Assembly: GCA_030141605.1 (NCBI GenBank)
Contig: JAQGDQ010000022.1
Location: 806,001 to 870,000, forward strand
Direction of reading: 5' to 3'
Length of the DNA: 64,000 bases
Origin: Tubiluchus corallicola
Taxonomy: Eukaryota > Animalia > Priapulida
Numbering within the stretch: the first letter of the stretch is position 1; each line of letters begins with the position of its first letter. The position numbers and the translations under genes were made by a program. Shown here piece after piece: positions 22,356 through 39,032 of the stretch. Under the pieces are notes generated by a model, which was given only the letters and a program-made list of their open reading frames with translations, searched no databases and had not been told where the DNA came from.

Positions 22356-22383
22356 ATGGAAACTACAACGGTAAAATTCGCCG
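22356..22383 (+). CDS. Trissin-like neuropeptide precursor, exon 1 (METTTVKFA + G)
   Basis: Strong start context aaacaATGG; consensus donor CCG|GTGAGT in phase 1, matching the phase-1 acceptor at 37639; completes a 27-aa signal peptide. Confidence 0.72.
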
Positions 22384-22534
22384 GTGAGTACAAACTATGA
22401 AGAAATAATGTTAGAATTATTATCATTATTTGTGTGCATGAATTAATTCATTTTAGTGCGTATTAATAGTTAAAAATTCAAGTGACAAAAGAAAATTTTT
22501 AGTTAACAAGGTATGCCATTATTTTGAATTCCAA

Positions 22535-23008
22535 AGTAGTAGTAGTAGTAGTAGTAGTAGTAGTAGTAGTAGCAGTAGTAGTAGTAGTAGTAGTAGTAGT
22601 AGTAGTAGTAGTAGTAGTAGTAGTAGTAGTAGTAGTAGTAGTAGTAGTGGCAGTGGTAGTGGTAGTGGTAGTGGTAGTGGTAGTGGTAGTGGTAGTAGTA
22701 GTAGTAGTAGTAGTAGTAGTAGTAGTAGTAGTAGTAGTAGTGGTAGTGGTAGTGGTGGCGGCGGCGGCAGCAGCAGCGGCAGCGGCAGCGGCAGCGGCAG
22801 CGGCAGCGGCAGCGGCAGCGGCAGCGGTAGCGGTAGCAGTAGTAGTAGTAGTAGTAGTAGTAGTAGTAGTAGTAGTAGTAGTAGTAGTAGTAGTAGTAGT
22901 AGTAGTAGTAGTAGTAGTAGTAGTAGTAGTAGTAGTAGTAGTAGTAGTAGTAGTAGTAGTAGTAGCAGTAGCAGTAGTAGTAGCAACAGCAGCAGCAGCA
23001 GCAGCAGC
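22535..23008 (+). repeat. Compound tri/hexanucleotide microsatellite (GTA)n-(GTGGTA)n-(GCGGCA)n-(GTA)n
   Basis: Directly visible; lies in intron 1 of the trissin-like gene. Confidence 0.98.
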
Positions 23009-25180
23009 GCATCGGGTATTTTGATTATATGAGAACAAACGCATTTGATACTAGAGATTTCATTAAGATATTCAAGATGTAAAATTGTATTAGAAGTAAT
23101 TTTGCCAATGCGTCACACGATATGGTTTCAGTCGCCTTTAGAAATCACTTTGGTGATAATTAAAGAAGCAGCGAAGTACCAATTGAACAATATCCACTTA
23201 TGTCAACTTACGAAACAGAGGTGGCTAAATTATCTAAAAAAAGTTTGATACTTGTGTACTATATAGTGCTGGAAAATATATAACTCCCGGCTATGCTCTA
23301 TTATGACAGATACTGATACTTTGCTCTAGCTACACACTAGCTGTAGTCTGTTTTGTTGCTTCAACTTGTTATCTTAATACACTTGACAAATTGCAAAATT
23401 ATTTTATCAGTTTTGTGGATCTTATTTGGAGTAACTTGTGCAGTCCCTTATTCATCGAAGGTCTTCTGTTAAATTAAGCCTGTTTATCGTAACTTTTCTG
23501 GAAGTTGCTCTCGAGATTTTCCAGCGCTTGTTCCAAAGGACTTCACTTGCTCGATGTCCTGAGTTTATGCTGTTTTTATAACTTATAATTGTCTTAGTAT
23601 CCATGTGCATTATAGTCAATATTGTATGTCGCTTGTTATCACCAACAAACTTAAAGCTTTAATTTTTCCCTTACCATATCTAAAAATGCAGTTTCTTATT
23701 TCTCAAGACTTACCTGTAAAACTCCCTATCAGAAAACTGTTTTTGTTAACAAAGTCACTTGCTTGAAGAACATGACGAACATCAGCTGATATCACCTATC
23801 ACAAATAAATTTAATATAATTTATCTTTTTCGATGTTCTCATCTTCTAACCGAAAACCCCTTATCTTGAGTGGAAAAACTGGTTTTGCTTGGAGCAATCT
23901 TGGAAAACATTTTTTTTATTCTTGGACTCTTGAACACTAAACTCATCAGTGAAGCAAAAGTGCTGAAATAAGACAAAGGGACAACATACACTCACTATTA
24001 TGTCATCTTATTACAGTGCTGCAGGTGCGTATTATTTCCGAAGGCATCGTTCACATCACTAGGGGCAATGAGTCGTTCTCTTAAGCTGATAAACTGTGTA
24101 AATTAGCACGAATGCGCGCTTTCGTTTAATTGGAGTATTGATGACTATAAGTAATATTAACAATGCTAATGCTGATTGATAGCAATATTTTTCATGACAT
24201 TAAAGAAATTTTAAGTATCCCAGGAGTTCTCAAAATGCAAAAGTGTCAGTGAAAAGTTTATTCATTTATAGCATGTATGGCACAACACAATCATATACCT
24301 TTCCACAACGCACAACACGATACTAACTTTATATATGTGAATATAGAGCAATTAATATTATAAATCTATGCAATTTGTTATTGTTATTACATAATTACCT
24401 TTGTAATTTTTTATCTGAACCTTTAACAATTATTGTTGGATAAATTTTAGTGACGTCTAGTTTTAGTGACAAATTAAATACAGAAAGTGTAGACTCTTCG
24501 ACAGACTCATGGGTTTAAAGTGTTTCTTTATAAAAACATCGTAAATTTTGAAACTTATATACGCTTGCTGGTAATTTTTGAGGAGCGTCGGATTTCACGA
24601 GTGGAGAAAATAGTTAATTGATTGTCTGAAACTGACCCACCACGAACAATGTTTAGTAATGCTGCAACGACTTTCTTCATAAATTAAACTTCATGTATCC
24701 ATATTTTCCAAAAGCATATGTACTTTATTATGTATCCCTCTGAAGATGTAGTTGCTATGCAGCCCTCAACTCTGCGTTAGTGCAATTTATTTGTCTGATG
24801 TAACAGATTCTCTACGAATAAGTTTTAGTAGGTTTATTCTGTCGTCTCATCATCTGAGGATTAAGACCGGTTGATATGCCAGGCCATCCATTCCTCGTGA
24901 TAACAGAGTATGCAGGTGTGATAATGTCTCTGTTCAAGACGAGTCGCATGTTATTGTGCATTGTAGATTATCTAAGCCAATTAGATGCTGTGTATTTAAA
25001 CAAAGTGCAAAAAGTTATTTGATTTAGAGCTTGAACTTTGTGGTAAATTCTTATCAGCAATTTTGAAAACTTACGATTAACTCGCTGTGGTATCATTTGT
25101 TGTTAACGCTTTTTTTACAATTCCGTGCCAATTTTTGTAATGTTGTTGATGGACTATAATGTTACCATTGTCAGTAAAAT

Positions 25181-25262
25181 ACTACTACTACTACTACTAC
25201 TACTACTACTACTACTACTACTACTACTACTACTACTACTACTACTACTACTACTACTACTA
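25181..25262 (+). repeat. (TAC)n microsatellite
   Basis: Directly visible. Confidence 0.97.
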
Positions 25263-25484
25263 TTAGCTTACTGTCTAAATCTGTAGGGCAAGCTAGTTAC
25301 AGAATTAGCATCAATGGTACTATTGCATTAGACTCCGCTGCTTGCAGGTATTTCCCCAATCAGCTTTTGTTTCTGGTGTCTTTATAAATAAATTGAAATT
25401 TAATAAGTTTAATTTGCTTGTTAAATTTGCTGTTTTGTATGCGCCAGTCGGCTTTGCTGATCCCTGGTATAAAAATCCAGAAAA

Positions 25485-36938: not shown

Positions 36939-37121
36939 ATTTAGGTTTGCGTAGCTGACGTCATGTAATGGCGGCGTCGGAACAGTTTTGCGGGTGATTT
37001 AAATTGAAAACAAACAAAAAATCCCTTCAGCCGGAGTACGATATATGCATAGAATTGCTGTAAAGTAGTATAATTTTTTAAGGCGATTTTTCTAAAACCT
37101 ACTTCGGGTATCCCTTTTCTT

Positions 37122-37195
37122 GTCATTTAAACCCGCGACCTCCCGGGTGGGAAGCGAGTGTGCTACCAAGCCTACCATTGAGCTACAACCCCCCC
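37122..37195 (-). pseudogene. tRNA-like pseudogene or SINE head (Gly/Ala-like)
   Basis: Minus strand GGGGGTTGTAGCTCAATGGTAGG..CTCGCTTCCCACCCGGGAGGTCGCGGGTTTAAAT: A-box, tRNA-Gly-like anticodon arm, degenerate B-box, no 3' acceptor stem. Confidence 0.6.
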
Positions 37196-37639
37196 GGGAT
37201 ATTTGGGAACAGATTTCTTTTATTTTAGAATTATGCCGGCTTGCATCTATAGACCTTGGGCGAAGAGATTTGGCAAATGTGATGATCAAGATGATGATGA
37301 TAACGATGAAATGAGGATAACGACGATGATCACATTAACGTTAATGGTGATGATGATGATGATGAAATTGACGATGACCATGAATCGCTTATCTAAATTA
37401 TTTTATCCCATAGTGGTTACATAGGGAAACCAGCAAAATTTTGGTGCACAACACTAGATGACTATGTGACGATGACGAGCGCATGCGGCGTCTTTCCAGA
37501 AATCTAATGAGTTTTAGCGATAATTATCTGAATAGCAAACATTTTGTCTGCGCAAATGGTAGAAGTTGTCGAAAATTTTAAGCTGCGAAACAGCATAATA
37601 ATACACTACATGACAATGTGTTGTTTTACTTTTTTTCAG

Positions 37640-37851
37640 TTTTGGTTGTTGTGGTTTCTGTCCTACTCTTGTGCAGCAGACGAGTTTCAGCAAACGGAAA
37701 CTGTCACTCCTGCGGATCAAGGTGCAGTCAATTATGTAAAGGAATGAGATTTAAAGAATACGCCGAATGCTGCTTACTGAATCGAGTCAGGCAAAAACGC
37801 GTTAGTTCCTCAAGTCCACCGCACCATCGGCGCCACCTTGTGATGTTACCG
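37640..37851 (+). CDS. Trissin-like neuropeptide precursor, exon 2 (signal peptide core, six-Cys mature peptide, KR site)
   Basis: Strong acceptor tactttttttcAG; encodes LVVVVSVLLLCSRRVSA-NGNCHSCGSRCSQLCKGMRFKEYAECCLLNRVRQ-KR; Cys pattern CxxCGxxCxxxC-x10-CC; donor CCG|GTAACG, phase 0. Confidence 0.85.
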
Positions 37852-38903
37852 GTAACGCATACAGTCTTACAAATTCTTCTTTTACGATATGAATAGCCCA
37901 AATATTTTTTGATAAAAACTGAACATATATAATTGAATTTTAGTTTAATAATAGTAATACCTTAGTATATACATATATAGTACATATTGTATAGTACATA
38001 TATATATATATATATACAGGTTATACATATAAAACATTAGGTTTGTTGCTGTCAAAGATGTTTTTGGTACTGTATGAGCGCGCTGTACTTTGCTCTTCAT
38101 TAATATCATAACGCACTGACATAATTTTTATCACTGTTTTGTTTAACTGTCTTTCGAATTATCTGGAGACGGTAAAAAGTAGCTTATGGTAATAAGTAAG
38201 TCATCCCATCCTCGCATAATATGGGAAAGCATAACATGGGAACATTTCGAACTTTCTTGAAACTTTCTAACTTTCTTTGTCCGAAACTACTTGACATAAC
38301 TACGTCACCTGCAAAACCCCAGGCGCAGTTGCTTAAATTGTGAAGCCGCGGGTGATAAGTTTACTGACGGCTTACATAATGTAGAATTTATAAATAAACA
38401 TATCTACAGAAGTACACGTCGTTGAGAAGAAAACCGAAATCTACTTTCAGGTGCCTTAATTACCGCATTAAAAAAGACTCACCAAAATTTTTTTACGTTT
38501 AGCATTTTTGATTTAGCACAGCAGGTTAAAAATAAGTCAATAATTTGCGAAGGAAATATTCAATCCTTGGTGAAGACACTGTAACTCAGATCTGAGACTT
38601 GGTACATCACTGAGTCACTGTCACTTATGGTACCATTTTCATTTGGTGCCTGGCCTCGGATTCTGTATAAATGAGTTGTATATATAAAACGCAAAATCCT
38701 AATTTTCTTTTAGTCGCACTGTAAGCTTATGCTGGATAATTATTGTAATGCTTCAATAATATATTTTGCTAACAGTTTTCTATTGTGAAGGTGCTCTAAG
38801 AGAAACGCGTACTCAGCAATGTCTGTTAAAATAACCCAAACTATAAATTGTTTATTATATTGTTTATTAATTTATTATATCGAGATTTTCTTTGCGTTTT
38901 CAG

Positions 38904-39032
38904 AAATCTCCAGATTTATACTTCGCCATGCCAGCAGAATTCGAGGAACTAGAAAGAGAGGACTTAGAATTTTATAAGGAGTCATTGCTCGATCAACTGT
39001 TAAATAAAGGTTTTAGAGATCGACGAAAATGA
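38904..39032 (+). CDS. Trissin-like neuropeptide precursor, exon 3 (acidic C-terminal propeptide and stop)
   Basis: Acceptor ttttctttgcgttttcAG, phase 0; open frame KSPDLYFAMPAEFEELEREDLEFYKESLLDQLLNKGFRDRRK*; AATAAA downstream at 39341. Confidence 0.78.
   Translation, partial: KSPDLYFAMPAEFEELEREDLEFYKESLLDQLLNKGFRDRRK

What the first reader, a model, noticed from the sequence alone, without database searches (positions are those of the whole stretch)
22356..39032. Hidden three-exon trissin-like neuropeptide precursor gene spanning 16.7 kb
Seen: a 28-nt first coding exon (22356-22383, GTGAGT donor, phase 1), exon 2 (37640-37851) and exon 3 (38904-39032) splice in frame to 122 aa: METTTVKFAVLVVVVSVLLLCSRRVSA | NGNCHSCGSRCSQLCKGMRFKEYAECCLLNRVRQ | KR | VSSSSPPHHRRHLVMLPKSPDLYFAMPAEFEELEREDLEFYKESLLDQLLNKGFRDRRK. 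Known: this layout (signal peptide, six-Cys peptide, dibasic site, acidic tail) and the CxxCGxxCxxxC..CC pattern match the trissin family (Drosophila IKCDTCGKECASACGTKHFRTCCFNYL). Inference: a divergent trissin orthologue or a related new family. Gene predictors could easily miss it because of the tiny first exon and 15-kb intron. Trissin is best characterised in arthropods, so the host lineage matters for how novel this is.
Basis: partly seen in the sequence, partly recalled or inferred. Interest (0 to 1): 0.9.

Follow-up and report, generated by a model that had tools for sequence, protein, structure and literature searches.

The report
Trissin-like neuropeptide gene in priapulid-like worm
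A three-exon gene, whose second intron is seen spliced out in a public sequence contig, encodes a predicted six-cysteine secreted peptide that is likely a relative of the arthropod neuropeptide trissin in what is likely a priapulid worm or close kin; it would be a candidate ligand for a receptor family whose ligands outside arthropods were not found in the papers searched.

Summary
The three exons (28, 212, 129 nt; GT..AG) splice to one open 122-aa frame. One contig of one RNA-like run joins exon 2 to exon 3 at the predicted sites. The 15-kb first intron is not bridged by any contig. Exon 1 still ranks first of 430 candidates, lies behind a CRE/TATA/Inr-like promoter, and its 5' leader is covered by the same run. 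The neighbouring UNC93A gene groups with Priapulus (100/99), and a grouping with arthropods is rejected (p-AU 0.0004), so the host is likely a priapulid or kin. The predicted 34-aa peptide has cysteine loops 2-3-3-10-0 against 2-3-3-7-0 in published arthropod trissins, and the same precursor layout. No search gave a statistical link to trissin; no trissin sequence or profile was available to test against; receptor activation is untested. Trissin-type receptors are reported as orphan in nematodes and lophotrochozoans, and I found no non-arthropod trissin peptide in the open library. Verdict: real gene, likely a divergent trissin orthologue (0.65).

The parts
22023..22030 (+). perfect CRE-type palindrome (TGACGTCA), about 100 nt before the predicted start of transcription
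   Evidence: 1 of 4 such sites in the window; function untested; motif name recalled
22093..22125 (+). TATA-like box (22093-22102) and Inr-like element (predicted +1 at 22123)
   Evidence: the only place among 134 TATA-like matches on both strands with both an Inr-like match and a CRE within 200 nt (counted twice, at two offsets); criteria set after seeing the site
22123..22355 (+). predicted 5' untranslated leader with three short upstream ORFs (6, 16, 39 aa)
   Evidence: one X2 contig covers 22139-22321 with 9 other letters; for the upstream ORFs
22356..22383 (+). coding part of exon 1 (start codon, first 9 codons plus 1 base, phase-1 donor)
   Evidence: rank 1 of 430 ATG..phase-1 GT candidates in 14600-37560 and best donor score of 1445 GT sites (approximate matrices from recall); link to exon 2 inferred
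22384..37639 (+). intron 1, 15,256 nt, rich in simple repeats
   Evidence: 0 of 41 intronic ORFs of 58 aa or more match Pfam at E 0.001; not bridged by a contig
37640..37851 (+). exon 2: rest of the predicted signal peptide (to 37692), predicted 34-aa six-Cys peptide (37693-37794), Lys-Arg site (37795-37800), start of the tail
   Evidence: 37691-37850 covered by the spliced X2 contig
37852..38903 (+). intron 2, 1,052 nt, phase 0
   Evidence: skipped with GT..AG ends in one X2 contig
38904..39032 (+). exon 3 coding part: precursor tail with an acidic stretch, basic C-terminus and stop codon
   Evidence: first 47 nt covered by the spliced contig
39065..39346 (+). candidate polyadenylation signals (ATTAAA 39065 and 39267, AATAAA 39341)
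   Evidence: motif matches only, the 3' end is not mapped

Best explanation
This is a spliced three-exon gene that likely encodes the precursor of a trissin-type neuropeptide in a host that is likely a priapulid or related scalidophoran worm. Shown: the open frame, the six-cysteine pattern, the splice of intron 2 in one contig, and contig cover of the leader before exon 1. Inferred: transcription from the CRE/TATA/Inr-like promoter near 22123; splicing of exon 1 to exon 2; a 27-aa signal peptide cut after Ala27; three disulfide bonds; a convertase cut at the Arg-Gln-Lys-Arg site with trimming to a 34-aa non-amidated peptide (average mass about 3,889 Da with three disulfides); release from neurons or neurosecretory cells; and activation of a trissin-type rhodopsin-class GPCR encoded elsewhere in the genome, as Drosophila trissin activates CG34381.
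For: Frame and sites. Splice of intron 2; the one listed difference in that contig's coding part is silent. Exon 1: rank 1 of 430, promoter motifs, leader cover. Signal anatomy: one Lys, a hydrophobic core (11-residue hydropathy up to 3.6), small residues at -3 and -1. Family likeness: loops 2-3-3-x-0, Ser before and Gly after the second Cys, aromatic residue three places before the Cys pair, peptide directly behind the signal, basic site behind, no amidation Gly; all match the motifs printed in PMC7179676 and PMC8449533 (passages; compared by eye). Precursor length 122 lies within the 88-201 aa reported there. Host: UNC93A best hit Priapulus caudatus, 57%, 365 bits against 328 for the next; sister to Priapulus 100/99, arthropod grouping rejected p-AU 0.000377. 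Trissin-type receptors exist outside arthropods as orphans, so a ligand is expected in such a host.
Against: No statistical link to any trissin: Pfam none, word search none, phmmer over 1.84 billion representatives one unrelated 2,724-aa hit at E 4e-4, Atlas only beta-defensin clusters at 0.77-0.81, which the tool rates chance level, and nothing once these were skipped. All used exon 2 alone, with low power for a 34-aa peptide. The loop between Cys4 and Cys5 is 10 residues against 7, and the end has seven residues after the Cys pair against four, without the aromatic residue that follows the pair in arthropods. No Priapulus caudatus counterpart was found. Junction 1 is not bridged. The spliced contig comes from one run of one study whose RNA status is a guess, and it differs from the window at 7 letters. 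SignalP was not run. The host rests on one gene, in trees without kinorhynchs, loriciferans, nematodes, tardigrades or onychophorans.
Confidence: 0.65

Rival explanations
1. A real secreted neuropeptide or hormone of a separate, lineage-restricted family whose cysteine frame resembles trissin by convergence and which would act on another receptor.
For: Prohormone layout and promoter motifs hold without trissin kinship. No search links it to trissin. The Cys4-Cys5 loop and the C-terminus differ from arthropod trissins.
Against: Three of four loops, the Ser-Cys-Gly motif, the aromatic position before the Cys pair and the precursor order all match trissin, and the receptor family is present outside arthropods.
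Confidence: 0.17
2. A cationic, disulfide-rich defence peptide (antimicrobial, defensin-like) that would be secreted by epithelia or coelomocytes.
For: Net charge +4, pI 8.9. The order of four single Cys then a pair is that of beta-defensins (recalled), and the Atlas's nearest clusters were beta-defensins at 0.81. An antimicrobial role was once raised for trissin itself (PMC3510462 passage).
Against: The Atlas score is at the level that shuffled proteins reach a third of the time. Loop lengths differ from beta-defensins (recalled as about 6-4-9-6). The single-sequence model has two helices and no strand (mean pLDDT 74.7, pTM 0.43). One copy in 64 kb, no tandem paralogues with the pattern. A 59-aa tail behind a dibasic site suits a prohormone.
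Confidence: 0.12
3. Exons 2 and 3 are real but the first coding exon is another one nearer to exon 2, or the spliced contig comes from a processed copy; the peptide reading would stand but the 16.7-kb gene model would be wrong.
For: No contig bridges 22383/37640. Other phase-1 candidates give usable signal peptides, for example at 35546 and 36621. Intron 1 is four times the longest neighbouring intron measured (3,765 nt). The intron-1 interior was never laid with reads.
Against: Exon 1 has the best donor of 1445 sites and the best combined score of 430 candidates, promoter-like motifs at fitting distances and leader cover in the run that holds the spliced contig. Unspliced, its ATG gives only 14 aa, so it needs a downstream exon, and no Pfam-recognised exon lies between (0 of 41).
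Confidence: 0.06

Closest known systems
Arthropod trissin precursors (Drosophila CG14871, ligand of TrissinR CG34381; polyneopteran and decapod trissins)
   Same: Single-copy peptide directly behind the signal peptide; six Cys with loops 2-3-3 and a terminal Cys pair; Ser-Cys-Gly at the second Cys; aromatic residue three places before the pair; no amidation; basic cleavage site followed by a tail; precursor size in range.
   Different: 34 aa against 27-29; Cys4-Cys5 loop 10 against 7; seven residues after the Cys pair against four, with Leu instead of Phe first; dibasic Lys-Arg inside Arg-Gln-Lys-Arg instead of the usual tribasic site; host outside arthropods. Receptor, disulfide pattern and expression untested.
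Orphan trissin-type receptors of nematodes (C. elegans NPR-20, NPR-21) and lophotrochozoans
   Same: They define the signalling system this peptide would belong to; listed as orphan in PMC11538413, PMC7615250 and PMC8557429 (passages).
   Different: These are receptors, not peptides. No such receptor was looked for in the host because no genome is held. The intronless GPCR in the window (5327-6313) matches only 7tm_1 and amine-type receptors weakly and was not shown to be of this type.
Beta-defensins
   Same: Small, cationic, secreted; four single Cys followed by a Cys pair (recalled); nearest Atlas clusters at 0.77-0.81.
   Different: Loop lengths differ (recalled), the model is helical, no Pfam defensin match, and there is a long tail behind a dibasic site.

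Membership tests
Trissin | Six cysteines, four single and a terminal pair | tested here: met
   Cys 31, 34, 38, 42, 53, 54 of the precursor; family description in PMC3510462 and PMC8449533
Trissin | First three loops of 2, 3 and 3 residues, Gly after the second Cys | tested here: met
   against the motifs printed in PMC7179676 and PMC8449533, by eye
Trissin | Cys4-Cys5 loop of about 7 residues and a short aromatic-Asn end after the Cys pair | tested here: inconclusive
   Here 10 residues and a seven-residue end beginning Leu-Leu-Asn. Single-residue insertions occur in insects (PMC7179676); whether three are tolerated is unknown
Trissin | Peptide follows the signal peptide directly | tested here: met
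   Hydropathy and -3/-1 pattern put the cut after Ala27, three residues before the first Cys of the peptide; SignalP not available, so the exact cut is predicted
Trissin | Ends at a di- or tribasic site without an amidation glycine | tested here: met
   Lys-Arg at 62-63 preceded by Gln; family rule in PMC7179676
Trissin | Significant sequence or profile similarity to trissin precursors | tested here: inconclusive
   No hit; queries were exon 2 only and no trissin sequence or profile was available as a positive control
Trissin | Activates a TrissinR (CG34381) orthologue | not testable with these tools
   Needs the host receptor and a cell assay; no genome held
Trissin | Expressed in the central nervous system; three intramolecular disulfides | not testable with these tools
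   Only contigs of unknown tissue; the model does not report disulfide pairs
Beta-defensin | Beta-defensin loop lengths and profile match | tested here: not met
   Loops 2-3-3-10-0 against about 6-4-9-6-0 (recalled); no defensin family in Pfam at E up to 10
Beta-defensin | Three-stranded beta-sheet core | tested here: inconclusive
   Single-sequence model has helices 9-14 and 20-33 and no strand, pTM 0.43; no fold match of weight

The most novel reading that the evidence does not exclude
This is the first trissin peptide outside arthropods. It dates the ligand to at least the last common ancestor of ecdysozoans and shows which positions survive that distance (loops 2-3-3, Ser-Cys-Gly, aromatic-x-x-Cys-Cys, with a free Cys4-Cys5 loop), giving a relaxed motif with which to find the missing ligands of C. 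elegans NPR-20/NPR-21 and of the lophotrochozoan trissin-type receptors.
Probability: 0.42. Interest if true: 0.72.

Novelty: new variant of a known kind. Interest (0 to 1): 0.57.

Why it matters
Trissin is one of the few neuropeptide systems whose receptor is traced across protostomes while the ligand is described only from arthropods. Papers from 2021 to 2024 list the nematode and lophotrochozoan receptors as orphan. A divergent peptide from a priapulid-like worm, an early-branching ecdysozoan, would close part of that gap and give a concrete peptide and search motif to test on those receptors. In flies the receptor promotes sleep through clock neurons (PMC11698076 abstract), so an ancient ligand would let one ask whether that role is old. 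It is not a new kind of system, and specialists would expect such a peptide to exist.

Tried and rejected
No whole genome is held, so no receptor or paralogue search. The run search listed no holder on record as RNA; it listed 2 runs, X1 (holder, kind unknown) and X2 (same species label, RNA by guess). Parts without contig cover: X2 has none over 19200-22138, over 22322-22530, over 37300-37690 or inside intron 2; these blanks are not used as evidence. Homology searches with exon 2: Pfam one weak poxvirus match at E 0.012, below its cut-off (exon 3 none); word search none at 38-123 aa (longer proteins not searched); phmmer one long unrelated protein; PDB sequences two matches at E above 1; metagenome scan one locus, L001, whose frame has no cysteines and shares only a short His/Arg stretch, rejected as chance (the scan stopped at 18 of 64 parts). 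Atlas: defensin clusters at chance level, then nothing. Fold searches: Foldseek 0 matches; VIA-align best Z 3.0, rmsd 2.2, 34 aligned, none at Z 5 or more: uninformative. Gbx as a second lineage marker was uninformative: the 120 listed hits were limited to 288 aa or more and none was from Priapulus. A cephalopod venom preprint names trissin only in a list of crustacean abbreviations. Earlier scan notes: nothing on this gene or genome; one note on an arthropod trissin-receptor pair, unrelated.
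Full report
Observation. The three stretches are at the stated coordinates. Exon lengths are 28, 212 and 129 nt with cumulative phases 1, 0, 0; donors read GTGAGT and GTAACG and both acceptors are pyrimidine tracts ending in CAG. Joined by coordinates they give 122 aa without an internal stop. 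The six-cysteine spacing occurs once in the window's six frames and 0 times in 60 simulated windows; the pattern came from the finding, so this only shows that it is not a common chance product. The tail is not acidic overall (11 acidic, 10 basic of 59).

Is it spliced and expressed? The run search listed two runs. X2, which shares the species label of the holder and is RNA by guess only, has one 224-nt contig that covers 37691-37850 and 38903-38950 and skips 1,052 nt with GT..AG ends: exactly intron 2. It differs from the window at 7 letters; the one listed difference is silent. X1 shows no joint and has pieces that run through intron 2 into exon 3, as DNA would. This is one contig of one study. 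The contig begins with loose letters at 37691, so junction 1 is not covered. A second X2 contig covers 22139-22321, directly before the start codon of exon 1. It does not reach the donor.

Is exon 1 the right one? Exon 2 has no in-frame Met upstream, so a first coding exon is needed. Upstream lie a perfect CRE-type palindrome at 22023, a TATA-like box at 22093-22102 and an Inr-like element at 22123; among 134 TATA-like matches on both strands only this site has both companions (criteria were set after I saw the site; CRE sites in neuropeptide promoters are recalled knowledge). None of 41 intronic ORFs of 58 aa or more matches Pfam.

Host. The window also holds an intronless rhodopsin-class GPCR (5327-6313, minus), UNC93A (about 8870-14530, minus) and Gbx (55855-57059, plus). 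The best of 478 UNC93A hits is Priapulus caudatus (57%, 365 bits; next 328). In a quick tree with 46 of the 120 listed hits the window's protein is sister to Priapulus (SH-aLRT 99). In a careful tree with 18 named hits, chosen to span phyla and to drop most birds and all unnamed rows, support is 100/99, the pair joins arthropods at 95/95, and forcing the window's protein with seven arthropods is rejected (p-AU 0.000377; I named the group after seeing the quick tree). At 56% identity the host is not P. caudatus itself. No kinorhynch, loriciferan, nematode, tardigrade or onychophoran was in the trees, so 'priapulid or related scalidophoran' is as far as one gene goes. Gbx did not help.

What the protein is. 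It has a signal-like N-terminus (one Lys, hydrophobic core, small residues at -3 and -1 before residue 28), a 34-aa peptide with cysteine loops 2-3-3-10-0 and net charge +4, a Lys-Arg site within Arg-Gln-Lys-Arg, and a 59-aa tail. PMC7179676 (passages) describes polyneopteran trissin precursors of 88-117 aa in which a non-amidated 27-aa peptide follows the signal peptide directly and ends at a tri- or dibasic site, with single-residue insertions in some lineages. PMC8449533 (passages) gives a 29-aa crab trissin in a 201-aa precursor. Both printed motifs have loops 2-3-3-7-0, Ser before and Gly after the second Cys, and an aromatic residue three places before the Cys pair. By eye the window's peptide shares all of these but has three more residues in the fourth loop and a longer, non-aromatic end. 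No tool gave a statistical link: Pfam, word search, phmmer over 1.84 billion representatives, PDB sequences and Atlas found nothing of weight. All used exon 2 alone, and no trissin sequence was on hand as a positive control, so this leaves homology open. A single-sequence model has two helices and no strand (mean pLDDT 74.7, pTM 0.43), which sits poorly with a beta-defensin; fold searches were uninformative.

How it likely works. Shown: frame, cysteines, splice of intron 2, leader cover. Inferred from general prohormone biology (recalled): entry into the secretory path, signal cut after Ala27, three disulfides, convertase cut at the basic site, trimming to a non-amidated 34-mer of about 3,889 Da, regulated release. 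Inferred from likeness: action on a trissin-type GPCR, as Drosophila trissin activates CG34381 at picomolar concentration in a cell line and is expressed in the central nervous system (PMC3510462 passage). I put this at 0.65, a separate neuropeptide family at 0.17, a defence peptide at 0.12, and a wrong first exon or processed copy at 0.06.

Novelty. [quoted passage not shown] Searches of the open library: 'trissin' 192 papers, 40 listed; with 'priapul' 1 paper, which does not link the two words; with 'tardigrad' and 'neuropeptide' 3; with 'ecdysozoa' 9; whole word from 2024, 48 papers, 40 listed; further broad searches. In the listings and in the passages of the 14 papers searched for the word and one abstract I saw no trissin peptide outside arthropods. 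I opened no supplements, and subscription papers on tardigrade, onychophoran, chelicerate or priapulid neuropeptides are not in the library; a priapulid trissin could already stand in such a place. That is why the novel case is put at 0.42 rather than 0.65.

Verdict. A real, spliced gene; a trissin-like precursor in a likely priapulid-type host; filed as a new variant of a known kind, membership likely but not proven. Interest 0.57.

Noticed in passing
window 55855-57059 (+): Two-exon Gbx/unplugged homeobox gene 17 kb downstream; an unnamed Logan protein (P0124) is 93-95% identical over both exons, so a close relative of the host has been sequenced. Perfect CRE-type sites lie at 55682 and 56926.
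   Followed up: partly
window about 8870-14530 (-): UNC93A-like gene, at least three coding exons found (13569-14474+, 9536-9803, 8874-9063), probably a fourth near 8431-8709; used as lineage marker.
   Followed up: yes
window 5327-6313 (-): Intronless, divergent rhodopsin-class GPCR of about 326 aa; Pfam 7tm_1 E 1e-22, weak best matches to amine receptors in PDB. Ligand unknown; not shown to relate to the peptide gene.
   Followed up: partly
window 22146-22351 (+): Three upstream ORFs (6, 16, 39 aa) in the predicted leader; the last stops four bases before the main start codon, which could tune translation.
   Followed up: no
window 36956-36963: A second perfect CRE-type palindrome inside intron 1, about 680 nt before exon 2 and near an alternative first-exon candidate at 36621.
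   Followed up: no
window 21556-21610: Several X1 contigs match only this short stretch and run on unlike the window, suggesting a short interspersed repeat upstream of the promoter.
   Followed up: no
window 15832-16305 (-) and 11081-11362 (+): ORFs that look by eye like decayed retroelement pieces (recalled likeness); no Pfam match at E 0.001.
   Followed up: partly
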